Shown here: positions 2,923-34,745 of the stretch, piece after piece | Layout of the letters: each line of letters opens with the position of its first letter | Numbering within the stretch: the first letter of the stretch is position 1 | Virus record (IMG/VR): IMGVR_UViG_3300045988_100094 | DNA from: a virus | Length of the DNA: 34,856 nt | Reading direction: 5' to 3' (one strand) | The notes under the pieces: model-generated | The model's database searches: none | What the model was told of the DNA's origin: nothing | What the model saw: the letters and a program-made list of their open reading frames with translations, nothing else | Translations under genes and position numbers: made by a program

Positions 2923-3471
2923 CTAATTTAATTTAGGCATAATCGTTGTACAAGCACCTTTTTGCAGCAACTCTTGCAATGGTTGGCCTTTGTGCGTCCA
3001 ATTATCCAAAAACTTCAAAATGACAGGCGTACCTTGTGGATATTTAGGGTTAGTATCATACGGATATGGTGCACTGACAATGTCCCCAAAACTATAGCGG
3101 ACACCGTCGGTTAGCGTCGGCAAAAGTGATGCAACTTTTTTGTACAAATCTTGCTGCATACCACCCTCGATCGAAATAGCAAGCAGAATCAATACATCTG
3201 TCAATTTTGATGTACGCTCTACGCTATCTTTATTTTTATTTGTTGCGTCTGATGTCTTGTCTAGTTTTTGTTGCATTTCTGCAATAGCTCCTGTTGGATC
3301 AAGTTCAGTCGCTACCATTTTTAAAACTGCGTCTGTCAAAATCTCATCGCTGTCATTCATGCGATCGCCTTCGAGCACACGGTCGTAAGCCGTATAAGGC
3401 TCGTCGCAACGAATAGCAACAAAAGTCTTGTTTGCTTCGCGTAAATATTTATTAGCTACTCTAAATTTCAT
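2923..3471 (-). CDS. Hypothetical phage protein between tail fibre and lysis genes (DUF1366-like by position and recall)
   Basis: 182-aa ORF with good coding context. The family assignment is from memory only. Confidence 0.55.
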   Translation of the reverse strand: MKFRVANKYLREANKTFVAIRCDEPYTAYDRVLEGDRMNDSDEILTDAVLKMVATELDPTGAIAEMQQKLDKTSDATNKNKDSVERTSKLTDVLILLAISIEGGMQQDLYKKVASLLPTLTDGVRYSFGDIVSAPYPYDTNPKYPQGTPVILKFLDNWTHKGQPLQELLQKGACTTIMPKLN

Positions 3472-28235: not shown

Positions 28236-28520
28236 TCATCCTCCTGTCTTCATCCAATTTCTGTGATACCAGTCAATTACCTCATCACGAGGAAACTTGT
28301 CACGTTTTCCCTCGATTCGAGGGAAATCTTTATGACAGTTGAAACGTGCATCAAACGTTCCAGTATCTTTCGTCCCTAGTAACATTTCAGAGCATTGCGA
28401 TTTGTTTAACTCCATAGGATAGCGCCTTTTTTCGTCTGTCACAACGTGCATGACCTTTAATGCTCTATCCATCAGACCAGCTTCAAATTGATCCAACATT
28501 TGATTCATTAGATCATTCAT
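28236..28520 (-). CDS. Hypothetical protein
   Basis: 94-aa ORF in the operon. Confidence 0.55.
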   Translation of the reverse strand: MNDLMNQMLDQFEAGLMDRALKVMHVVTDEKRRYPMELNKSQCSEMLLGTKDTGTFDARFNCHKDFPRIEGKRDKFPRDEVIDWYHRNWMKTGG

Positions 28521-28541
28521 GATATAATCCTCTTGTAATAT

Positions 28542-29400: not shown

Positions 29401-29616
29401 CTAAATCGGTTTTAAATCGGATTTATGGCCTAAAAAAATAAAATTAGGATCAATCTGATATAAATTTGCTAATTTATGCAGTAAGTCTAGTGGAATTCTA
29501 GAACTATCATGTTCATATTTTAGTAAAGTTTGATGATGAATACCTATTTTTTTAGCAGCTTCTTTAGCAGACAAATTGTTATTAACTCGTAACGCTCGTA
29601 ACGTCATTTTCTGCAC
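29401..29616 (-). CDS. XRE-family HTH regulator (Cro-like)
   Basis: [21 protein letters not shown] is a classic HTH_3 pattern. It is divergent from the DUF2513-like gene. Confidence 0.8.
29405..29422. promoter_or_regulatory. Distal operator-like site (ATCCGATTTAAAACCGAT on minus strand)
   Basis: Near-identical to the 18-mer ATCCGATTTAAACCGGAT at 31800-31817, which fills the lytic promoter spacer. It sits at the 3' end of the HTH gene, just upstream of the next RBS. Confidence 0.55.
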
Positions 29617-29674: not shown

Positions 29675-30049
29675 ATGAGATTAAATCCTGATTGTATACG
29701 TGATATTCTACTTGTCGTTGAAAAACATGCAACCTATTCTAACGACGTTGAACAAGATATCGTTTTTAGAAAATTAGAGGATACATATAATCACGAAGAA
29801 ATTTTGTATCATATCCGCCAATGTGAAGCAAGCGGACTCTTCTTAAAGGTACAACACTTTTTCGGTGGTTTCTCAATTATAGATTTATCTCCAGCCGGCC
29901 ATCAATTTATTAACGATATTAGACAAGATACTAACTGGAACAAAATTAAAGAAATCGCAAAGAACGTTGGTTCTACTTCTCTTGATGTCTTAAAAGAAAT
30001 ATCTGTTCAGGTTATTTCAAATCTTATATCAAACCAATTTAGCAAGTAA
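29675..30049 (+). CDS. DUF2513-like winged-helix protein, lysogeny-strand accessory gene
   Basis: MRLNPDCIRDILLVVEKH... resembles the DUF2513 N-terminal pattern (from memory). It is on the plus strand, embedded antisense within the early lytic operon. Confidence 0.6.
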   Translation: MRLNPDCIRDILLVVEKHATYSNDVEQDIVFRKLEDTYNHEEILYHIRQCEASGLFLKVQHFFGGFSIIDLSPAGHQFINDIRQDTNWNKIKEIAKNVGSTSLDVLKEISVQVISNLISNQFSK

Positions 30050-30180: not shown

Positions 30181-30366
30181 CTATCTAAATTCATCTAGGC
30201 TGACGTCCAATGCGTCAGCTATTTTTTGCATGTTGTCAAAGTAAACGCGTTTTGTACGGCCAGTCTTTAAATTGATGAGTACATTCTGGTCAATGCCAGC
30301 CTTTTTACTAACAGCATACATCGTCATTCCTTTACGTTCCATGACAGCTTTTATTTTTTTCCACAT
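30181..30366 (-). CDS. XRE-family HTH regulator (Cro-like), divergent from the Abi_alpha-like gene
   Basis: 61 aa. MTMYAVSKKAGIDQNVLINLKTG matches an HTH_3 pattern. RBS GGAGGA upstream. Confidence 0.8.
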   Translation of the reverse strand: MWKKIKAVMERKGMTMYAVSKKAGIDQNVLINLKTGRTKRVYFDNMQKIADALDVSLDEFR

Positions 30367-30413
30367 GTCATCCTCCTACTACATATTGTGCTTTTTGTTT
30401 TTATTATTCAAAA

Positions 30414-30430
30414 CAATATACTATATATTG
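30414..30430. promoter_or_regulatory. Palindromic operator candidate CAATATA-CTA-TATATTG
   Basis: Perfect 7-bp arms at 30414-30420 and 30424-30430. It overlaps the -35 boxes of both divergent promoters. The sequence is unrelated to the CI-type operators. Confidence 0.5.
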
Positions 30431-30456
30431 ACAAGTTGCTATATTTATTTTATAAT
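30428..30456 (+). promoter_or_regulatory. Consensus sigma-70 promoter for the Abi_alpha-like gene
   Basis: TTGACA (30428-30433), a 17-nt spacer, then TATAAT (30451-30456). A face-to-face minus-strand candidate, TTGTCA-N17-TTGAAT, shares the same -35 nucleotides. Confidence 0.75.
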
Positions 30457-30532
30457 ATAACTATGATTAACGACTAAGCCAACTTTAACTACCAATTTTA
30501 CTCTTTCGTTAATCAAAGAATTAAGAAAGTAA

Positions 30533-31330
30533 ATGACGATGACTGAAGATAACTCAAAAAATGACTTACTCAATCCTTTACCTATTTCAAAAGATACTGG
30601 AGACGCCTTATTCAAACCTGCTGCAACTTCTATCGGAGAAGCTTCTAAAACTTTATTAGATGGTGTTTTCCATCTAGCCTTTGATCCTATTAGAAAATTC
30701 AATATACAGAGAGAATCCGATTTAGAGCGTTTCAGGCTAGAAATTCAAGCTTCTGCCCAAGCAATCCCAAATGAATTTTATGATAATTCAAAAATCGGTT
30801 TAGTATTAAAAAGCATTGAAGATTCAAAGTATCAACTCAACAATGATGAAATAAGGGCGATGTTTACAAGACTAATCATTACTGCCATGGACTCACGGTC
30901 AAACTCGAATATCAGTCCTAAGTACAGCTCTATTGTCTCAGAAATGACTCCAGAAGAAGCACGGTTATTGAAGGAGATTTACTCAAACACAGCTTCCTTA
31001 GTCCCTTTTGCCAGCTTGAAAATGGAAAATAAAGATGGCTCTTCAAGGGATTTAGATCAATATTTTTTACTGTTTGATAACTATTCAGATAACAATAAAA
31101 TGTTGGAATTATCATTACTTGAAAGCTCCAATTTAATAAATTTCCATAAAGATACAAAACTAGTGCACCCACACTTTACCAATATAATTACCTCTTTCAG
31201 AAAGAGCTTTCCAGAAAATTTGAATACATTATTCCCGAACTTTTCAGACGACGAAGAGGTTATTTTCGAGCATTCCTACTATTCTTTGACTACACTTGGA
31301 GAATCCTTTTGCAAAATAGTTTTTAGTTGA
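30533..31330 (+). CDS. DUF4393 / Abi_alpha-like protein
   Basis: 265 aa. The central block DEIRAMFTRLIITAMDSRSNSNISPKYSSIVSEMTPEEARLLKEIY matches the recalled DUF4393 (Abi_alpha) signature. It is on the lysogeny strand with its own consensus promoter. Confidence 0.65.
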   Translation: MTMTEDNSKNDLLNPLPISKDTGDALFKPAATSIGEASKTLLDGVFHLAFDPIRKFNIQRESDLERFRLEIQASAQAIPNEFYDNSKIGLVLKSIEDSKYQLNNDEIRAMFTRLIITAMDSRSNSNISPKYSSIVSEMTPEEARLLKEIYSNTASLVPFASLKMENKDGSSRDLDQYFLLFDNYSDNNKMLELSLLESSNLINFHKDTKLVHPHFTNIITSFRKSFPENLNTLFPNFSDDEEVIFEHSYYSLTTLGESFCKIVFS

Positions 31331-31446
31331 AGATAAAGAATCCTGTTCTCCATTTTATCTAACTCTTTAGCCAAATAGTAACTATAAATTCTCAAGATAA
31401 TGAAAGTTATTAGTATGTTCGTAATTATTATCAGAACAAAAAACAT
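31279..31446 (-). CDS. Possible 55-aa membrane peptide
   Basis: MFFVLIIITNILITFIILRIYSYYLAKELDKMENRILYLQLKTILQKDSPSVVKE. AAGGAGG lies 9 nt upstream of the ATG at 31446. It is the internal start of track ORF 31279-31557. The last 52 nt overlap the convergent Abi_alpha-like gene. Confidence 0.5.
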   Translation of the reverse strand: MFFVLIIITNILITFIILRIYSYYLAKELDKMENRILYLQLKTILQKDSPSVVKE

Positions 31447-31460
31447 CTTTCCCTTCCTCC

Positions 31461-31547
31461 TTAAAAAATAAAATTCCAAATCACAATCGCAAGTATCACA
31501 CCAACAGAGACCAGTCCGCCGACTGTCCAAAGTTGCTCTTTCTTCAT
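31461..31547 (-). CDS. Possible 28-aa hydrophobic peptide (not in ORF track)
   Basis: My translation: MKKEQLWTVGGLVSVGVILAIVIWNFIF. GAGGTGA lies 7 nt upstream of the ATG at 31547. Its TAA overlaps the RBS of the next ORF. Confidence 0.45.
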   Translation of the reverse strand: MKKEQLWTVGGLVSVGVILAIVIWNFIF

Positions 31548-31581
31548 TGCTTTTCACCTCGCATTATGCTAGAATGACGGT

Positions 31582-31612
31582 GTAAGAGTTGGGGCTTGCG
31601 CCCCGTTCTTAC
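31582..31612 (-). ncRNA. Stable GC hairpin with tetraloop (structured RNA element, function unknown)
   Basis: Outer stem GTAAGA / TCTTAC, inner stem GGGGC / GCCCC. The loop is GCAA on the minus strand (GNRA type). No U-tract follows on either strand. Confidence 0.4.
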
Positions 31613-31631
31613 TACTCCTTCGGCGTGACTC

Positions 31632-31745
31632 TTATTTAAATAAGAGTTGGAGTATAACTGCGATAAGCGCTATTATCGCTGCTATTACTGTGGCTCTTGG
31701 CTGTGTTAGCCAAGGGTCTTTTCGTTTACGCCGGCGTCTTAGCAT
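31632..31745 (-). CDS. Possible 37-aa peptide with basic N-terminus and TM segment (not in ORF track)
   Basis: My translation: MLRRRRKRKDPWLTQPRATVIAAIIALIAVILQLLFK. It is the first ORF after the consensus lytic promoter, with GAAAGGA upstream. The region is also packed with hairpins, so it may be non-coding. Confidence 0.4.
   Translation of the reverse strand: MLRRRRKRKDPWLTQPRATVIAAIIALIAVILQLLFK
31694..31727 (+). terminator. Possible plus-strand terminator shielding the cI promoter region
   Basis: Stem CTCTTGGC (31694-31701) / GCCAAGGG (31709-31716) including one G-U pair, 7-nt loop, then TCTTTTCGTTT. Confidence 0.4.
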
Positions 31746-31793
31746 AATATTTTTCCTTTCGTTTTATTTGGTCATTTCCTTGACCTTGATTAT

Positions 31794-31822
31794 ATTATAA
31801 TCCGATTTAAACCGGATGTCAA
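31794..31822 (-). promoter_or_regulatory. Consensus early-lytic promoter with operator in the spacer
   Basis: Minus strand reads TTGACA (31822-31817), a 17-nt spacer, then TATAAT (31799-31794). The spacer is the near-palindromic operator. Confidence 0.8.
31800..31817. promoter_or_regulatory. Operator ATCCGATTTAAACCGGAT (near-palindrome)
   Basis: Arms ATCCG / CGGAT around TTTAAA. Related sites: TACGATTTAAAACGGTA (31872-31888), TACGAAAAAAATCGGAT (31830-31846, degenerate) and 29405-29422. Confidence 0.65.
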
Positions 31823-31863
31823 GAGTTTTTACGAAAAAAATCGGATTTTTTTATATTTTTTTA

Positions 31864-31892
31864 TTTACAAGTACGATTTAAAACGGTATTAT
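31864..31892 (+). promoter_or_regulatory. Probable cI (lysogenic) promoter
   Basis: TTTACA (31864-31869), a 17-nt spacer, then TATTAT (31887-31892). The spacer holds operator-like site 31872-31888. RBS AAAGGAG lies 6 nt before the ATG at 31926. Confidence 0.6.
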
Positions 31893-31925
31893 ATAGTAAA
31901 AAGGATAAATAGAAAGGAGCAAAAA

Positions 31926-32702
31926 ATGGCTAGAGGACGAGGAAAACTAACCCCGCATGAGTTAGAAGCGATGAAAGTTGTATCTAACAATCTTCAAAAA
32001 ATTTTATTTGAAAAAAATTTAAAACAATCACAAATAGCTGACGCGCTCAATATTCCAAGAAGTACTTTTAACGACTATATAAAAGGGAATACGTTGCCTA
32101 TTCCGGGAAACGTCCAAAAAATAGCTGATTATTTTGGTTTATTAAAATCAGACATTGACCCAAGATTTGCTTCTACGAACACATCTCCCACTCTTTCCAC
32201 TACGGCAAAAGCTATTTCTGATACCGTAGAGAAGCTAGAAGAACCCCGTAGAGTAATTGTACTAGACACTGCTAAAACGCAGCTAGACGAGCAAAACAGA
32301 GCCCAGAATGACGTTCATGAGGAACTAACAGAATATCATGTATTCGAGAAGTTAGCTGCAGGTAATGGCTACAATTACATGGAAGACCGCAACTATGATG
32401 TTGTATTTTTTAATAAAGATATTGACCACGACTTTGCTTCTTGGGTCTATGGCGATTCAATGGAGCCCAAATACCTTGACGGTTCTGTTGCCCTTATCAA
32501 AGATACCGGCTGGGACTACGACGGTGCTATCTATGCCGTTGACTGGGACGGGCAATCTTACATCAAGAAAGTATATAAAGAAAAAGACGGCCTAAGGCTC
32601 GTCTCAATAAATGATAAATATGACGATAAGTTTGCCAAGTGGGAAGAAGACCCCCGCATCATTGGAAAAGTAGTTGGCAATTTTATGCCGGTGGAGAGAT
32701 AA
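31926..32702 (+). CDS. CI-like repressor: N-terminal XRE HTH plus C-terminal S24 (LexA-like) autopeptidase
   Basis: The HTH is QSQIADALNIPRSTFNDYIKG. A candidate Ala-Gly cleavage site lies in LAAGNG. The serine motif is GDSMEP, with a downstream lysine in YIKKV. Confidence 0.9.
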   Translation: MARGRGKLTPHELEAMKVVSNNLQKILFEKNLKQSQIADALNIPRSTFNDYIKGNTLPIPGNVQKIADYFGLLKSDIDPRFASTNTSPTLSTTAKAISDTVEKLEEPRRVIVLDTAKTQLDEQNRAQNDVHEELTEYHVFEKLAAGNGYNYMEDRNYDVVFFNKDIDHDFASWVYGDSMEPKYLDGSVALIKDTGWDYDGAIYAVDWDGQSYIKKVYKEKDGLRLVSINDKYDDKFAKWEEDPRIIGKVVGNFMPVER

Positions 32703-32865: not shown

Positions 32866-33285
32866 ATGAAAATAGGGATAAGAAAACCTAGTTTAAAGAG
32901 AAGTCTAAAAGCTAGGAGCACATCAAAGTGGAAACGCCAAATGAAAAAAGCGGTGATCCCAGGATATGGACAAAAAGGAATAGGCTGGATTAAAAACCCT
33001 AAAAAGGCACTATATAACAAGGTTTATCACAAAACAACTTTTGGATTATCTGACATTGTGAAATCTTCAAAAAAGAAAGGTTCAGCTAAAGTTAAGAAAA
33101 AAGCTGTCCGACAAGCTAAAGACTACACGGTAAAAGACTATAAGCAGGCCGGCATTGTAATGATTATTTTAGGTCTGCTATTGATGTTTCTAATACCATT
33201 TTTAGGGACATTTTTGTTATTATTTGGTATTATTTCATTCTTTGTTGCCACTCTATTTTCTAAAAAATATTCAAGGAGTAAATAA
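32866..33285 (+). CDS. Basic membrane protein expressed from the lysogeny strand (superinfection-exclusion candidate)
   Basis: 139 aa. Lys/Arg-rich N-terminal two-thirds, with two C-terminal TM segments (GIVMIILGLLLMFLIPFLGTFLLLFGIISFFVATLF). Confidence 0.65.
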   Translation: MKIGIRKPSLKRSLKARSTSKWKRQMKKAVIPGYGQKGIGWIKNPKKALYNKVYHKTTFGLSDIVKSSKKKGSAKVKKKAVRQAKDYTVKDYKQAGIVMIILGLLLMFLIPFLGTFLLLFGIISFFVATLFSKKYSRSK

Positions 33286-33555
33286 ATGGGATTTTTTGAC
33301 AAAGCAAAAGAAGAAGGATCTTTCTCTACCGCTTCAGGTATTGAAAATCTTCACTATGTCGTATTACAAGTGACTTTGAAAGAAAAATTTATTGGAACTG
33401 GTTCAGGAAATTTAACAGAGCTAGAAAATGTCATCAATAAGCAGGCTAAAAAAGGCTATCGCCTACACACCATTGCTACTAGTAACGGTGGAAGTAAAGG
33501 TCTAGTTGGCGGAGATAGGATTCAAGCTACTATGGTTTTTGAAAAAATTTATTAA
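33286..33555 (+). CDS. DUF4177-like small protein
   Basis: 89 aa. HYVVLQV...LENVINKQAKKGYRLHTIA...ATMVFEK matches the recalled DUF4177 pattern. AGGAG lies 7 nt upstream, and the ATG abuts the previous stop. Confidence 0.55.
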   Translation: MGFFDKAKEEGSFSTASGIENLHYVVLQVTLKEKFIGTGSGNLTELENVINKQAKKGYRLHTIATSNGGSKGLVGGDRIQATMVFEKIY

Positions 33556-33560
33556 ATAAA

Positions 33561-33598
33561 AATCCCCACGCTGCCGACCAAAGCAAAGCGTGAGGATT
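33561..33598 (-). terminator. Minus-strand intrinsic terminator between the DUF4177-like gene and int
   Basis: 12-bp stem (33561-33572 / 33587-33598). Its single non-Watson-Crick position is G-U on the minus-strand RNA but C-A on the plus-strand RNA. TTTTTATTT follows only on the minus strand. Confidence 0.45.
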
Positions 33599-33674
33599 GA
33601 CTCTGTATAGTAATCAGGCATTAAAAAGCCCTTTTTACTTACCCATTTTATCAAAAAGTGAGGTAAAATACAAT

Positions 33675-34745
33675 ATGGCATCAATTAGAAAAAGAGGAAA
33701 ATACTTTGAATACCGTGTCGTCTATCATGATAGCTTAGGAGAAAGACATGAAGCTTCATGTGGTGGCTTTAAGACGAAGGCACAAGCGAGAGCCGCAGGG
33801 CAAAAAAGAGAAGTTGAGTTGCGTAATTCGCCAATGTCTAATAATGAAGTCACCATGCTTGATTATTATAAGGCGTGGGCACAACTTTATAAAAAGCCTT
33901 ACATCAAGAAAAAAACTTGGAACTCTTACAAACAAACAAAAAATCACATCATTAAGTATTTTGGGCAAATCAAACTTAAAGATATGACACCAGTCAGATA
34001 TCAAGAGTTTTTAAACAAATTTGGTTCAAAATATGCTCAAGATACGATTGAACGGACACACTACCATATAAAATCAGCTGTTAAAATTGCTGTTCGCGAT
34101 CAACTTATTCCATCGAATTTCACAGAAGGAGCGGTTGTTAAATCACAAAAAGAAAAAAAGCCAGAAGCTGAAAGCTATCTTGAAGAAGATGAGTATTTCT
34201 ATGTCATTTCAAAGACTCAAGAAAATCCACAATATATTTCACATATGACTCTCTATATTCTGGCTATTAGTGGAATGAGATTCGCTGAAGCTATGGGTCT
34301 AACTTGGGATGACATTGATTTTAAAAACCAAGTTTTCAGAGTTGAAAATACATGGGACTACTCTGACACAGAAGATTTTTCAGAAACTAAGAACGAACAA
34401 TCTATTAGAGAAATCCCCTTTAATGATAATGTAGCAAGAGTTTTGAAGAATTATAAGAAAAACTATTGGCGAGAAAATAAACAAGGTCGTGTTCTTTTTG
34501 GAGCGTCAAATAGAGCCACTAACACGGCTTTAAAAAGAATGGTCAAGAGAGAAGTCCACCCGCATACTTTGAGACACACATACGCCTCCTATCTCATTTT
34601 TAAGGAGGTACCAGTTGCCAGTATCTCAAAACTGTTGGGACACAAATCAATATTAGTAACACTCAAGGTTTATGCCCACCAGTTTGAAAAAATGAAAGAA
34701 AAACATCATTCAGAAGTTAGAAATATTTTATCAGAAATTCATTAG
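33675..34745 (+). CDS. int: Tyrosine integrase
   Basis: MASIRKRGKYFEYRVVY... is an arm-binding N-terminal style. Catalytic boxes are SGMRFAEA, HPHTLRHTYAS and LGHKSILVTLKVYAH. The ATG at 33675 with GTGAGG upstream is preferred to the track start at 33597. Confidence 0.9.
   Translation: MASIRKRGKYFEYRVVYHDSLGERHEASCGGFKTKAQARAAGQKREVELRNSPMSNNEVTMLDYYKAWAQLYKKPYIKKKTWNSYKQTKNHIIKYFGQIKLKDMTPVRYQEFLNKFGSKYAQDTIERTHYHIKSAVKIAVRDQLIPSNFTEGAVVKSQKEKKPEAESYLEEDEYFYVISKTQENPQYISHMTLYILAISGMRFAEAMGLTWDDIDFKNQVFRVENTWDYSDTEDFSETKNEQSIREIPFNDNVARVLKNYKKNYWRENKQGRVLFGASNRATNTALKRMVKREVHPHTLRHTYASYLIFKEVPVASISKLLGHKSILVTLKVYAHQFEKMKEKHHSEVRNILSEIH

What the first reader, a model, noticed from the sequence alone, without database searches (positions are those of the whole stretch)
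31279..31760. The cro position is occupied by three tiny hydrophobic ORFs and a chain of hairpins, driven by a CI-operated consensus promoter and converging on the Abi_alpha gene
**Promoter and first ORFs.** The strongest promoter in the window (TTGACA-17-TATAAT, minus strand, 31822-31794) has a CI-type operator as its whole spacer. It does not lead into a Cro-like HTH gene. It leads into three short ORFs, each with its own Shine-Dalgarno sequence:
- 37 aa, MLRRRRKRKDPW followed by a TM segment
- 28 aa, MKKEQLWTVGGLVSVGVILAIVIWNFIF
- 55 aa, a TM segment followed by an amphipathic tail

**RNA structure.** The same 200 nt contain at least four consecutive stable hairpins:
- 31694-31716
- 31660-31679
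- the perfect 20-nt palindrome ACTCTTATTTAAATAAGAGT at 31628-31647, which spans the stop codon of the 37-aa ORF
- the GC hairpin with a GNRA loop at 31582-31612

TAAGAGTTGG occurs twice (31583-31592 and 31641-31650), which would allow mutually exclusive pairings.

**Convergence.** The unit runs head-on into the plus-strand Abi_alpha-like gene. The ORFs overlap by 52 nt. If the plus-strand transcript reaches the candidate terminator at 31694-31727, it would be antisense to all three peptide ORFs.

**Interpretation.** Small TM peptides, 3'-overlapping convergent transcripts and a prophage location are the architecture of Firmicutes type I toxin-antitoxin loci such as txpA/ratA and bsrG/SR4. Here, however, the putative toxin side is under direct repressor control. 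I am not aware of a described system with this layout. It could be a repressor-gated membrane-toxin / abortive-infection module, a structured regulatory RNA, or a cro replacement.
Basis: partly seen in the sequence, partly recalled or inferred. Interest (0 to 1): 0.75.

Follow-up and report, generated by a model that had tools for sequence, protein, structure and literature searches.

The report
RNA-gated two-peptide cassette behind phage PR
Just downstream of the repressor-controlled early promoter of this Streptococcus prophage lie two conserved tiny membrane-peptide genes and, very probably, a convergent antisense small-RNA gene, an unannotated toxin-antitoxin-like cassette shared by phages with at least ten different repressor specificities; it does not replace cro.

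Summary
The consensus promoter, its palindromic operator, the three short ORFs, the hairpins and the 52-nt overlap with the Abi_alpha gene are all present.

- Homologues were found in 85 loci, all Streptococcus prophage-like. ORF1 (37 aa) and ORF2 (28 aa) are real genes under purifying selection.
- They form a fixed module that begins at the -10 box of PR. It is attached to at least ten different repressor/operator types.
- ORF3 (55 aa) belongs to the neighbouring Abi_alpha cassette.
- Cro-like HTH genes exist 1.1 and 2.1 kb downstream. In relatives without an inserted gene they follow ORF2 directly, so cro is not replaced.

New findings:
- The plus strand carries an invariant extended -10 promoter. 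A 5' stem-loop starts at the predicted +1.
- About 145 nt further on, an intrinsic terminator lies inside ORF1. Synonymous sites are frozen there, and two G-U pairs work only on the plus strand.
- This predicts a cis-antisense sRNA covering ORF1.
- In the mRNA, the ORF1 AUG pairs with a box about 170 nt downstream. This helix covaries in five lineage-specific forms.

[quoted passage not shown] No Pfam, NCBIfam, PHROG or Rfam family matches. Toxicity and the transcripts themselves are untested.

The parts
31794..31822 (-). Early promoter PR (TTGACA-17-TATAAT) with the palindromic operator ATCCGATTTAAACCGGAT (31800-31817) as its spacer
   Evidence: 12/12 match and a perfect palindrome. In 54 relatives the hexamers are kept. 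The spacer palindrome differs in at least 10 types and tracks the HTH type of the divergent repressor.
31770..31785 (-). 5' leader hairpin of the PR transcript (GGTCA AGGAAA TGACC). The transcription start is inferred near 31787.
   Evidence: 93.6% of cells are paired and 3 of 5 pairs show changes on both sides, e.g. GGTCA/TGACC to GCTTA/TAAGC. The start site is an inference from the -10 position.
31632..31745 (-). ORF1, 37 aa: polybasic N-terminus, invariant DPWLTQPRAT, then a C-terminal transmembrane helix
   Evidence: Intact in most of 85 loci. pN/pS is 0.18, against 1.2-3.1 in four other frames; the fifth (antisense frame 1, 0.29) has stop codons in 21 of 53 sequences. Only 17 unnamed clusters in 5.8 billion proteins and 7 representatives in 1.84 billion. 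No Pfam, PHROG or NCBIfam hit.
31740..31749 (-). 5' arm of the long-range mRNA helix; it contains the ORF1 AUG (31745-31743)
   Evidence: Pairs with 31562-31571 in the MFE fold. 98.3% of cells are paired across 52 distinct sequences, with pair 103/288 as GC 34 / UA 16 / AU 1. Two further lineage-specific forms in L050 and L114 were read by eye.
31562..31571 (-). 3' arm of the long-range helix (box TAGCATAATG), just upstream of the ORF2 Shine-Dalgarno sequence. It overlaps the antisense promoter's extended -10.
   Evidence: There are 38 G-U cells in mRNA sense against 3 that would pair only in the opposite sense.
31547..31575 (+). Predicted antisense promoter Pas: TTGCTT, 17 nt, TGcTAGAAT (extended -10)
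   Evidence: The pattern TTGNNN-N14-TGN-TANANT is present in 54/54 distinct relatives with a purine 7 nt downstream. Invariant columns fall on T1, A2, A4 and T6 of the hexamer, on the TG, and on the TTG of the -35. The pattern occurs 4 times in the window against 0.64 expected. It is kept, as TGgTAACAT with an 18-nt spacer, in distant L114. No transcript data exist.
31582..31727 (+). Predicted cis-antisense sRNA of about 145 nt, complementary to ORF1 from about codon 7 to the stop plus about 50 nt of the ORF1-ORF2 spacer
   Evidence: Inferred from the promoter and terminator. Predicted lengths in relatives are 121-146 nt. MFE is -64.7 kcal/mol with z = -6.4. No Rfam family matches.
31582..31612 (.). 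Extended GC hairpin (GTAAGA..GGGGC-loop-GCCCC..TCTTAC). It is the 5' terminal stem-loop of the predicted sRNA and an intercistronic hairpin with a GNRA loop in the mRNA.
   Evidence: 95-98% of cells are paired, with covariation GTAAGA/TCTTAC to GTAGG/CCTAC. The mRNA-strand loop is GCAA, GAAA or GUAA in most sequences. The whole hairpin is inverted in L077 and L090.
31628..31647 (.). Palindrome/hairpin spanning the ORF1 stop codon
   Evidence: 93.1% of cells are paired and 5 of 8 pairs show changes on both sides. The perfect palindrome is lost in the Javan74/L092 group.
31660..31679 (.). Hairpin GCGATAA-loop-TTATCGC inside the ORF1 transmembrane coding region
   Evidence: In both MFE folds. The inner stem is 88.7% paired in mRNA sense and 93.4% in antisense sense. 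This is the weakest of the conserved helices.
31692..31727 (+). Intrinsic terminator of the plus strand embedded in ORF1 codons 7-19: a 12-bp stem at 31692-31718 and a U-tract at 31719-31727
   Evidence: Terminator-like in the scan. All 12 pairs are kept in 54/54, one pair covaries (UA 37 / CG 17), and two invariant G-U pairs would be C-A on the minus strand. Fold energy is -16.6 kcal/mol on the plus strand and -10.0 on the minus strand. Synonymous sites of codons D10, P11, T14, P16, R17, A18 and T19 are frozen in 53/53, while transmembrane codons use 2-5 synonymous codons.
31461..31547 (-). ORF2, 28 aa: a short polar N-terminus, the motif W-x-[VI]-G-G, then a transmembrane helix
   Evidence: 31 distinct variants. 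pN/pS is 0.21-0.40 with variation concentrated at third codon positions. It is always found with ORF1, but L064 has a different ORF in its place.
31279..31446 (-). ORF3, 55 aa: a transmembrane helix plus an amphipathic tail. It is part of the Abi_alpha cassette, not of the PR module.
   Evidence: Absent from most relatives. Roughly 70% aa identity by eye (74% nt identity), with the same convergent overlap with an Abi_alpha homologue, in phage OlisA3, which lacks ORF1/ORF2.
30428..31330 (+). Convergent Abi_alpha gene (30533-31330) with its own 12/12 promoter (30428-30456). It occupies a variable gene slot.
   Evidence: Pfam PF14337, E=2e-29; promoter. 38 of 46 relatives have a convergent gene of at least 100 aa within 700 nt of ORF2: Abi_alpha of three types, DUF4145 and unknowns.
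30181..30366 (-). Cro-like XRE-family HTH gene (61 aa), the first HTH gene in lytic orientation
   Evidence: Pfam HTH_26 at 1.2e-12 and HTH_3 at 1.5e-9. Similar small HTH genes follow the convergent gene in many relatives.
31926..32702 (+). CI-type repressor (HTH plus S24 peptidase), divergent from PR
   Evidence: Pfam Peptidase_S24 at 7.5e-22 and HTH_3 at 3e-6; PHROG_4 transcriptional repressor at 5e-44.

Best explanation
**What it is.** The region is a conserved early-leader cassette of a family of Streptococcus temperate phages. It works like a type I toxin-antitoxin locus placed under repressor control.

**Shown by sequence comparison**
- The CI-operated promoter PR transcribes a structured bicistronic mRNA for two small single-pass membrane peptides, ORF1 (37 aa) and ORF2 (28 aa).
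- The ORF1 AUG is locked in a 10-bp helix with a box about 170 nt downstream.
- The opposite strand has the signals of a dedicated sRNA gene: an extended -10 promoter at 31547-31575, a 5' stem-loop starting at the predicted +1 near 31582, and an intrinsic terminator at 31692-31727 written into ORF1 codons 7-19.

**Inferred mechanism**
- In the lysogen, CI shuts PR while the constitutive antisense RNA of about 145 nt accumulates.
- Any leaked PR transcript is kept untranslated by the AUG-sequestering fold. It is also paired over the whole of ORF1 with the antisense RNA and degraded, probably by RNase III.
- After CI cleavage, the consensus PR fires head-on across the antisense promoter about 205 bp away. 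It outnumbers and occludes that promoter.
- The two peptides are then made as the first early products and act on the membrane, for example by depolarisation, host shut-off or help with lysis.
- The same transcript continues, antisense through the inserted gene, towards the cro-like genes.

**ORF3.** ORF3 is a separate small membrane protein of the Abi_alpha cassette.
For: **Coding**
- ORF1 pN/pS is 0.18 and ORF2 0.21-0.40. Four of the five other frames give 1.2-3.1; the fifth (antisense frame 1, 0.29) carries stops in 21/53 sequences.
- There are 34 ORF1 and 31 ORF2 variants.

**Module boundaries and linkage**
- Conservation starts at the -10 box of PR and ends at the ORF2 stop.
- At least 10 operator types match different repressor HTH types.
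- An ORF2 pattern finds only loci that also hold ORF1.

**Antisense gene**
- The promoter pattern is present in 54/54, with a purine at +7 and a 121-146 nt span to the terminator.
- Invariant columns fall exactly on the TG, on T1/A2/A4/T6 and on the -35 TTG.
- The pattern is rare in the window: 4 found against 0.64 expected.
- The terminator has 12 pairs unbroken in 54/54, one covarying pair and two plus-strand-only G-U pairs. Its energy is -16.6 against -10.0 kcal/mol.
- Synonymous sites in the stem are frozen.
- The same anatomy is found in the distant loci L050 and L114.

**mRNA lock**
- The helix is 98.3% paired, with compensatory GC/UA/AU at one pair and 38 mRNA-only G-U cells.
- There are five lineage-specific forms: ATTATGCTA, GACAGTATGCT, GCGATATGC, AGCGGTATGG and TAATGTGG.

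**Genetic linkage**
- Deletion variants lose the ORF1 transmembrane part, Pas and ORF2 together (L087 group, L088/L044).
- L064 keeps ORF1 plus Pas but has a different ORF2.

**Precedents**
- hokW-sokW assists lysis after prophage induction (PMC8621323).
- yonT/yoyJ/SR6 has two toxins on one mRNA and one antisense RNA in prophage SPbeta (PMC5848175).
- RacR silences the toxic ydaS/ydaT genes (PMC5700373); that they lie in the cro position of rac is my own knowledge.
Against: - There are no transcript, translation or toxicity data. The antisense RNA and both transcription starts are predictions.
- The -35 of Pas matches the consensus only in TTG, so the standard scan did not list it.
- The TG of the extended -10 is also forced by complementarity to AUG, so it is not independent evidence.
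- The peptides match no known toxin family. Their charge layout, with a basic N-terminus before the helix, is the reverse of most type I toxins (my own knowledge).
- A toxin promoter that is repressed in the lysogen does not fit post-segregational killing.
- About 10% of loci lack an intact ORF1, so the cassette is dispensable, or those prophages are decaying.
- Every helix is mirrored on both strands, so only G-U asymmetry assigns a strand.
- The relatives are closely related, so covariation counts overstate the number of independent events.
Confidence: 0.55

Rival explanations
1. The cassette is a regulatory antisense system without a toxin, in the manner of lambda OOP/cII or P22 sar. The sRNA and the hairpins tune the stability or amount of the PR transcript, and so the expression of the downstream cro-like and replication genes. 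This adds a second, repressor-independent layer of immunity. The two peptides are ordinary early membrane proteins, for example for superinfection exclusion or host takeover.
For: - The same promoter, terminator and helix evidence applies.
- The module is identical across heteroimmune phages. A resident sRNA could therefore act in trans on incoming relatives.
- In L050 and L114 an HTH gene follows directly in the same operon.
- There is no homology to toxins.
Against: - The start-codon lock acts on ORF1 specifically. Double locking of a tiny hydrophobic ORF is the usual signature of a harmful product (my own knowledge of hok, tisB and aapA1).
- The sRNA does not cover the ORF2 or downstream ribosome-binding sites.
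- No terminator in mRNA sense is available for attenuation.
Confidence: 0.25
2. There is no dedicated sRNA. The plus-strand hairpin inside ORF1 is only an insulator terminator that stops transcripts of the convergent inserted genes (here Abi_alpha) before they reach the genetic switch. The conserved box is kept solely for pairing with the ORF1 AUG. The promoter-like pattern is a by-product.
For: - 38 of 46 relatives carry a convergent gene just downstream.
- In the window no strong terminator lies between the Abi_alpha stop (31330) and 31692.
- The TG and part of the box are explained by the helix.
- The -35 is weak.
Against: - The T1/A2/A4/T6 positions stay invariant in L040 and L050, where those bases are not part of the helix.
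- The -35 TTG and the 17-nt spacing are invariant in what should be a free Shine-Dalgarno-to-AUG spacer.
- A purine at +7 is followed at once by a 5' stem-loop in all lineages.
- The terminator is equally conserved in loci without a convergent gene (L050, L114, L032) and in loci where the convergent gene has its own terminator (L043/L047).
Confidence: 0.12
3. ORF1 and/or ORF2 are precursors of secreted signalling peptides (SHP/Rgg-, PrgQ- or arbitrium-like) that report phage or lysogen density.
For: ORF2 looks like short hydrophobic pheromone precursors: a few charged residues followed by a hydrophobic stretch, with a variable C-terminus. The resemblance rests on my own knowledge.
Against: - No Rgg, PlcR, AimR or other TPR receptor gene is adjacent. 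The neighbour is an HTH-S24 repressor.
- The most conserved parts are the N-proximal W-x-x-G-G motif and the helix, not a C-terminal mature peptide.
- The peptides are made only after derepression.
Confidence: 0.04
4. The peptides replace Cro, or the unit is a repressor-gated abortive-infection module that works together with Abi_alpha.
For: No HTH gene lies directly after PR in the window. Abi_alpha is the convergent neighbour.
Against: - Cro-like HTH genes are present downstream, and directly adjacent in L050 and L114.
- The convergent partner varies (Abi_alpha, DUF4145, unknowns) or is absent, while the module stays constant.
- Abi_alpha with ORF3 occurs without the module in OlisA3.
Confidence: 0.04

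Closest known systems
hok/sok-type type I toxin-antitoxin loci, including hokW-sokW of Stx prophage Sp5 (PMC8621323)
   Same: - A small membrane peptide.
- A cis-antisense RNA with its own promoter.
- A long-range fold-back in the mRNA that blocks translation initiation (for hok, the fbi/tac elements; my own knowledge).
- A prophage location. hokW-sokW is activated on SOS induction and helps phage release.
   Different: - No sequence homology.
- The antisense RNA covers the body and 3' end of ORF1, not the 5' leader.
- The fold-back partner is internal to a polycistronic mRNA, not at a processed 3' end.
- The peptide promoter is a CI-operated early promoter, not a constitutive one.
yonT/yoyJ/SR6, bsrG/SR4 and txpA/ratA of Bacillus subtilis prophages and prophage-like elements (PMC5848175)
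   Same: - A Firmicutes prophage context.
- Convergent transcription.
- An antisense RNA of 100-220 nt that ends at its own terminator.
- yonT/yoyJ has two small toxic ORFs on one mRNA controlled by one antisense RNA.
   Different: - In those systems the overlap is at the 3' ends or on the second ORF's ribosome-binding site. Here the RNA covers nearly all of ORF1 and stops short of the ORF2 ribosome-binding site.
- The peptides are unrelated.
- Those toxin promoters are not under the phage repressor (my own knowledge).
Ibs/Sib of E. coli (my own knowledge)
   Same: An antisense RNA of about 140 nt, fully complementary to a very short hydrophobic ORF.
   Different: A chromosomal repeat in Gram-negative bacteria with constitutive promoters, no repressor control and no second peptide.
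Antisense RNAs in phage early operons: lambda OOP against cII, P22 sar against ant (my own knowledge)
   Same: A short convergent antisense RNA inside the repressor-controlled early right operon, with RNase III-type decay of the early transcript.
   Different: Their targets are soluble regulators (CII, Ant), not membrane peptides. No start-codon lock by a long-range helix is described for them.
RacR-YdaS/YdaT of the rac prophage (PMC5700373)
   Same: A CI-like prophage repressor keeps toxic products encoded next to it transcriptionally silent. That ydaS/ydaT are divergently transcribed in the cro position is my own knowledge.
   Different: YdaS is an HTH protein; no antisense RNA or membrane peptide is involved.
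prgQ/Anti-Q of Enterococcus plasmid pCF10 (my own knowledge)
   Same: A repressor-operated promoter leads into a tiny hydrophobic peptide ORF and a chain of hairpins, opposed by a convergent small RNA. Transcriptional interference occurs between face-to-face promoters.
   Different: That peptide is a secreted pheromone inhibitor, the hairpin (IRS1) is a true terminator used for attenuation, and the repressor PrgX is an RRNPP receptor.

Membership tests
Type I toxin-antitoxin system | Small (under 60 aa) hydrophobic peptide with one transmembrane segment | tested here: met
   ORF1 is 37 aa and ORF2 28 aa. Each has a hydrophobic stretch of about 20 residues, and both are under purifying selection. 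The transmembrane assignment is by inspection; no predictor was run.
Type I toxin-antitoxin system | A cis- or trans-encoded antisense RNA with its own promoter and terminator that base-pairs with the toxin mRNA | tested here: inconclusive
   Promoter, 5' stem-loop and intrinsic terminator signals are conserved in 54/54 relatives, with strand-specific G-U pairs and frozen synonymous sites. No transcript evidence is available.
Type I toxin-antitoxin system | Toxin mRNA folded so that translation initiation is blocked | tested here: met
   A 10-bp helix holding the ORF1 AUG is 98.3% paired, with compensatory changes and five lineage-specific forms. This is in silico only.
Type I toxin-antitoxin system | Peptide is toxic when expressed and is neutralised by the RNA | not testable with these tools
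   Needs inducible expression with and without the antisense region.
Type I toxin-antitoxin system | Toxin mRNA made constitutively and more stable than the antitoxin RNA (basis of post-segregational killing) | tested here: not met
   The only recognisable promoter upstream of ORF1 is PR, whose spacer is the repressor's operator. RNA half-lives are not testable here.
Known type I toxin families (Hok, Fst/Ldr, TxpA/BsrG, Ibs, TisB, SprA/SprG and others) | Sequence match to the family model | tested here: not met
   No hit in Pfam, NCBIfam or PHROGs at E up to 1-10. No Rfam hit for either strand.
Cro / XRE-family switch protein | Helix-turn-helix DNA-binding domain encoded as the first gene after PR | tested here: not met
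   ORF1-3 have no HTH match. HTH genes lie further downstream at 30366-30181 and 29616-29401.
RRNPP / SHP-type or arbitrium signalling peptide | Adjacent cognate TPR-type receptor or regulator (Rgg, PlcR, PrgX, AimR) | tested here: not met
   The neighbouring regulator is HTH plus Peptidase_S24 in the window and in L114. Divergent repressors in relatives are 246-313 aa (most 246-278), a size consistent with CI-type proteins.
Holin | Match to a holin family and a position next to the endolysin | tested here: not met
   Only a chance-level PHROG holin hit (E=0.57). The genes lie at the start of the early operon, far from the lysis genes.
Intrinsic (Rho-independent) terminator, plus strand 31692-31727 | GC-rich stem followed directly by a U-tract on the transcribed strand | tested here: met
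   A 12-bp stem of -16.6 kcal/mol followed by TTTTCGTTT; relatives have TTTTTTCTTTT. The minus strand has no U-tract after the hairpin.

The most novel reading that the evidence does not exclude
This is a previously undescribed class of repressor-gated type I toxin-antitoxin cassette, placed at the head of the early operon of streptococcal temperate phages.

- A membrane toxin is held by three locks: the CI operator, the AUG-sequestering fold and a constitutive antisense RNA. The locks turn loss of repressor into a rapid, irreversible commitment through membrane damage and silencing of the antisense promoter by head-on transcription.
- The cassette is nearly identical in phages of at least ten immunity types. 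The resident antisense RNA could therefore also act in trans on the early transcripts of superinfecting heteroimmune relatives, giving RNA-based cross-immunity that ignores repressor specificity.
- The module also marks the upstream edge of a hot spot where diverse anti-phage genes are inserted convergently.
Probability: 0.3. Interest if true: 0.78.

Novelty: new variant of a known kind. Interest (0 to 1): 0.62.

Why it matters
- **Cro-first assumption.** If the predictions hold, the first products made after prophage derepression in a widespread group of oral and commensal Streptococcus phages are two RNA-gated membrane peptides, not Cro.
- **A new input for type I TA-style control.** Post-transcriptional control of the type I TA kind would be wired directly into a lysis-lysogeny switch. 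Known type I systems do not take the phage repressor as an input.
- **Compact overlapping coding.** The terminator stem and U-tract on one strand encode the DPWLTQPR motif and the polybasic N-terminus on the other. An extended -10 element doubles as an anti-start-codon box.
- **Annotation.** The module is a precise landmark for an insertion slot that collects candidate defence genes (Abi_alpha, DUF4145 and unknowns). The peptide genes and the sRNA are missing from, or mis-stranded in, current phage annotations; Javan278, for example, has a CDS called on the wrong strand.
- **Testability.** All predictions can be tested with one lysogen, one Northern blot and a few plasmids.

Tried and rejected
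**Database searches that returned nothing**
- Rfam at gathering threshold on the whole window, and at E up to 10 on 31200-31950: only chance-level hits.
- Pfam, PHROGs and NCBIfam on the three peptides and on divergent variants: nothing.
- Literature search for the peptide strings: 0 papers.
- Literature searches on streptococcal switches, antisense RNAs and type I systems: no description of this module.

**Technical limits**
The 43-aa Javan64 variant was used instead.
- The genome contigs pattern scan returned mostly chance hits in high-GC MAGs. Only 5 Streptococcus loci were real.

**Ideas tested and dropped**
- Alternative pairing through the duplicated TAAGAGTTGG: dropped because the second copy is not conserved.
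- Helices 3 and 4 of the window's MFE fold: not conserved, at 41-54% paired.
- An internal minus-strand promoter for ORF2 at the box: rejected by eye because there is no plausible -35.
- The GC hairpin as a terminator on either strand: rejected because there is no conserved U-tract.
- Homology between ORF3 and the small membrane ORF of L014: none (E=0.29).
- A marginal high-GC hit (P0022, E=5e-4) carrying WLTQPRATV followed by a helix: looked at, but it could not be interpreted.

Full report
**Setting.** The window is a Streptococcus prophage. Its closest relatives are the anginosus-group phages Javan278, Javan64 and Javan74. The lytic genes lie on the minus strand. The right end carries the integrase (33597-34745, +), two small lysogeny-side genes, and a CI-type repressor with HTH and S24 peptidase domains (31926-32702, +; Pfam 7.5e-22). 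The finding lies directly across the divergent promoter region from cI.

**Check of the observation.**
- PR is TTGACA-17-TATAAT at 31822-31794, a 12/12 match.
- Its spacer is the perfect palindrome ATCCGATTTAAACCGGAT. The related core CGATTTAAAACGG fills the spacer of the cI promoter at 31864-31892.
- The ORFs of 37, 28 and 55 aa exist with Shine-Dalgarno-like sequences.
- The 55-aa ORF overlaps by 52 nt the plus-strand gene 30533-31330, which is Abi_alpha (2e-29).
- Both strands of the region fold far better than shuffled controls: z = -6.4 and -6.0, with 0 of 200 shuffles as good.
- One correction: a second 12/12 promoter, for Abi_alpha, lies at 30428-30456.

**Relatives.** DNA-pattern scans of IMG/VR, species-representative genomes and metagenomes, together with GenBank phages, gave 85 loci with a homologous stretch. 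All are Streptococcus or prophage-like, at 70-97% identity. Of these, 54 are distinct over the module. A profile search of 1.84 billion protein representatives added a still more distant locus, L114. The ORF1 family is tiny and unnamed: 17 clusters among 5.8 billion proteins and 7 representatives at E<0.001.

**What is conserved.**
- Conservation begins at the -10 box of PR and ends at the ORF2 stop codon.
- Upstream, the -35 and -10 hexamers are kept, but the 17-nt spacer holds at least ten different palindromes. Each goes with a different N-terminal HTH sequence of the divergent repressor of about 250 aa. This co-variation is good evidence that the palindromes are the repressors' operators. 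It also shows the cassette is shared by heteroimmune phages.
- Downstream of ORF2 the sequence is variable.

**The peptides are genes.**
- ORF1 has pN/pS 0.18. Four other frames give 1.2-3.1, and the fifth (antisense frame 1, 0.29) has stop codons in 21 of 53 sequences.
- ORF2 has pN/pS 0.21-0.40, and most variable columns are at third codon positions.
- ORF1 reads M-L-(basic x7)-DPWLTQPRAT-(20-residue hydrophobic helix)-K/R. ORF2 has a short polar start, an invariant W-x-[VI]-G-G and a hydrophobic helix running to the C-terminus.
- Neither matches any Pfam, PHROG or NCBIfam model.
- An ORF2-based pattern recovered only loci that also have ORF1. L064 keeps ORF1 but has a different ORF starting at the ORF2 ATG.

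**ORF3 is a different unit.** The 55-aa ORF is missing from most relatives. A homologue (74% nt identity; roughly 70% aa identity by eye) is found in S. oralis phage OlisA3. It has the same convergent 3' overlap with an Abi_alpha homologue and is followed by the same kind of 61-63-aa HTH gene. That phage has a different (repressor plus IrrE) switch and no ORF1/ORF2. ORF3, Abi_alpha and the 61-aa HTH gene therefore form a mobile cassette inserted behind ORF2.

**Cro is not replaced.**
- A Cro-like XRE gene lies at 30366-30181 (HTH_26, 1.2e-12). A second HTH gene lies at 29616-29401.
- In 38 of 46 relatives with enough flank, a convergent gene of at least 100 aa sits within 700 nt of ORF2. These are three kinds of Abi_alpha, DUF4145 proteins and several unknowns. 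In many of these loci the next gene in lytic orientation is a small HTH gene.
- In L050 and L114 there is no insert, and an HTH gene follows ORF2 directly. In L114 it is a frameshifted homologue of the window's 71-aa HTH gene.
- The likely ancestral order is therefore PR, ORF1, ORF2, cro-like gene. The space after ORF2 is an insertion slot for accessory genes, probably for defence.

**A predicted antisense RNA gene.** The plus strand carries TTGCTT-17-TGcTAGAAT at 31547-31575.
- In the 54-sequence alignment the invariant columns fall on the TG, on positions 1, 2, 4 and 6 of the hexamer, and on the TTG of the -35. Hexamer positions 3 and 5 vary.
- All 54 sequences match TTGNNN-N14-TGN-TANANT and have a purine 7 nt downstream.
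- The pattern is rare: 4 matches in the window against 0.64 expected.
- The purine is the first base of a stem-loop, GTAAGA..GGGGC TTGC GCCCC..TCTTAC. Its outer stem covaries to GTAGG/CCTAC.
- Between 121 and 146 nt further on lies the hairpin at 31692-31718, followed by a U-tract.
- All 12 pairs of that hairpin are unbroken in 54/54, and one pair covaries (UA 37, CG 17). Two invariant G-U pairs would be C-A mismatches on the other strand. The energies are -16.6 and -10.0 kcal/mol.
- This terminator is written into ORF1. The stem encodes D-P-W-L-T-Q-P-R-A-T and the U-tract encodes the lysine/arginine run.
- Synonymous sites of seven stem codons are frozen in 53/53 sequences, whereas the helix codons use two to five synonymous codons each.
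- The same promoter, 5' stem-loop and terminator are recognisable in the divergent L050 and L114.
- I therefore predict a cis-antisense sRNA of about 145 nt (31582 to about 31727), complementary to ORF1 from about codon 7 through the stop and 50 nt beyond. This is an inference from sequence; there are no transcript data. No Rfam family matches.

**A start-codon lock in the mRNA.**
- In the fold of the PR transcript, UAUUAUGCUA (31749-31740, containing the ORF1 AUG) pairs with UAGCAUAAUG (31571-31562), just before the ORF2 Shine-Dalgarno sequence.
- Across 52 distinct sequences this helix is 98.3% paired. One pair occurs as GC 34, UA 16 and AU 1. The whole structure exceeds all 500 column shuffles and all slid controls.
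- It has 38 G-U cells that pair only in mRNA sense.
- By eye, the two arms change together in five forms: ATTATGCTA (window), GACAGTATGCT (the divergent majority), GCGATATGC (L040), AGCGGTATGG (L050) and TAATGTGG (L114).
- The box overlaps the extended -10 of the antisense promoter, so one 10-nt stretch serves both strands. The TG is therefore not independent evidence for the promoter. The TAnAnT positions are, because in L040 and L050 they lie outside the helix.
- Other conserved helices are the 5' leader hairpin (93.6%, three covarying pairs), the hairpin over the ORF1 stop (93.1%) and the GC hairpin (95-98%). The GC hairpin's loop on the mRNA strand is GCAA, GAAA or GUAA in most sequences.
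- There is no U-tract after any hairpin in mRNA sense, so nothing suggests attenuation of the PR transcript.

**Mechanism proposed.**
- Shown: two conserved peptide genes behind a repressor-operated promoter, a conserved AUG-sequestering helix, and conserved plus-strand promoter and terminator signals.
- Inferred for the lysogen: CI closes PR and the antisense RNA accumulates. Leaked PR transcripts stay untranslated and are paired and cleaved.
- Inferred after CI cleavage: the consensus PR fires head-on over the antisense promoter about 205 bp away and overwhelms it. The peptides are then made first and act on the membrane. The transcript reads on, antisense through the inserted gene, to the cro-like genes.
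- In the window the Abi_alpha mRNA probably also runs to the ORF1-embedded terminator, because no strong terminator lies in between.
- Deletion variants lose the ORF1 helix, the antisense promoter and ORF2 together but keep the terminator hairpin (L087 group, L088/L044). That fits a unit whose parts cannot safely be lost one at a time, but it is weak evidence.

**Comparison with known systems.**
- The cassette works like a type I toxin-antitoxin locus.
- The fold-back lock and antisense RNA recall hok/sok. hokW-sokW of prophage Sp5 is activated by mitomycin C and helps phage release.
- Two small ORFs on one mRNA with one antisense RNA recall yonT/yoyJ/SR6 of SPbeta.
- Full coverage of the ORF recalls Ibs/Sib (my own knowledge).
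- A repressor that silences a toxic neighbour recalls RacR-YdaS/T.
- An antisense RNA inside the early right operon recalls lambda OOP (my own knowledge).
- Membership in type I TA is not established. Toxicity is untested, the peptides match no toxin family, and the toxin-side promoter is repressed in the lysogen, which does not fit post-segregational killing.
- I file it as a new variant of a known kind.

**Uncertainties.**
- The relatives are fairly close, so the number of independent compensatory events is small, perhaps five lineages.
- Metagenome assemblies carry errors. L114 has frameshifts.
- The -35 of the antisense promoter is weak.
- Strand assignment rests on G-U asymmetry.
- The function of the peptides is unknown.

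Noticed in passing
window 29405-29422: ATCGGTTTTAAATCGGAT is a near-copy of the PR operator (1 mismatch to the half-site pattern). It lies 2.4 kb away at the 3' end of the 71-aa HTH gene (29616-29401). It could be a distal operator for repressor looping, or a chance match.
   Followed up: no
window 30428-31330 and the equivalent place in L001-L112: The space just after ORF2 is a hot spot for convergently inserted genes with their own promoters. 38 of 46 relatives carry one: Abi_alpha of three types, DUF4145 proteins, and several proteins of 110-240 aa with no family. This looks like a defence-gene slot.
   Followed up: partly
window 30181-31446; L113 (OlisA3) 1389-2679: ORF3 (small membrane protein), Abi_alpha and a 61-63-aa XRE HTH gene travel together as a three-gene cassette between unrelated lysogeny modules. 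ORF3 and Abi_alpha always overlap tail to tail by about 50-60 nt.
   Followed up: partly
window 29675-30049 (+): A second plus-strand insert, a DUF2513 protein (Pfam 5.5e-20), sits between the two HTH genes of the early region.
   Followed up: no
L077 and L090 (also L019), GC hairpin between ORF1 and ORF2: The whole hairpin of about 34 nt is present as its exact reverse complement relative to the other sequences. This is an inversion that keeps the stem but moves the GNRA loop to the other strand.
   Followed up: no
L087, L066, L057, L070, L073, L074; L088, L044; P0020, P0021: These are recombinant or deleted variants. The first 20-27 codons of ORF1, through the terminator hairpin, are fused in frame to unrelated downstream genes. 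The breakpoint lies just after the hairpin.
   Followed up: partly
L001 (Javan278) 3312-3425: In the GenBank record of Javan278 the only CDS annotated over ORF1 is on the opposite strand. That frame has stop codons in 21 of 53 relatives. ORF2 is not annotated in any of the three Javan records.
   Followed up: yes
window 28500-28528 (+), 33409-33437 (-), 33645-33673 (-): These are the three other exact matches to the extended -10 promoter pattern TTG-N17-TGnTAnAnT. Each faces against the local genes, and one lies inside the 5' part of int. They may be further antisense promoters.
   Followed up: no
L115 683-913 (P0022): A 76-aa protein on a high-GC metagenome contig carries SWLTQPRATV followed by a hydrophobic helix (E=4.9e-4 against the ORF1 profile). 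It is unclear whether this is chance or a sign that the motif matters at protein level.
   Followed up: partly
window 32866-33555 (+): Between cI and int lie a 139-aa protein with a basic N-terminal part and a hydrophobic C-terminal stretch (PHROG_29766, unknown function) and a DUF4177 protein. Both are on the lysogeny side and are candidates for lysogenic-conversion or exclusion functions.
   Followed up: no
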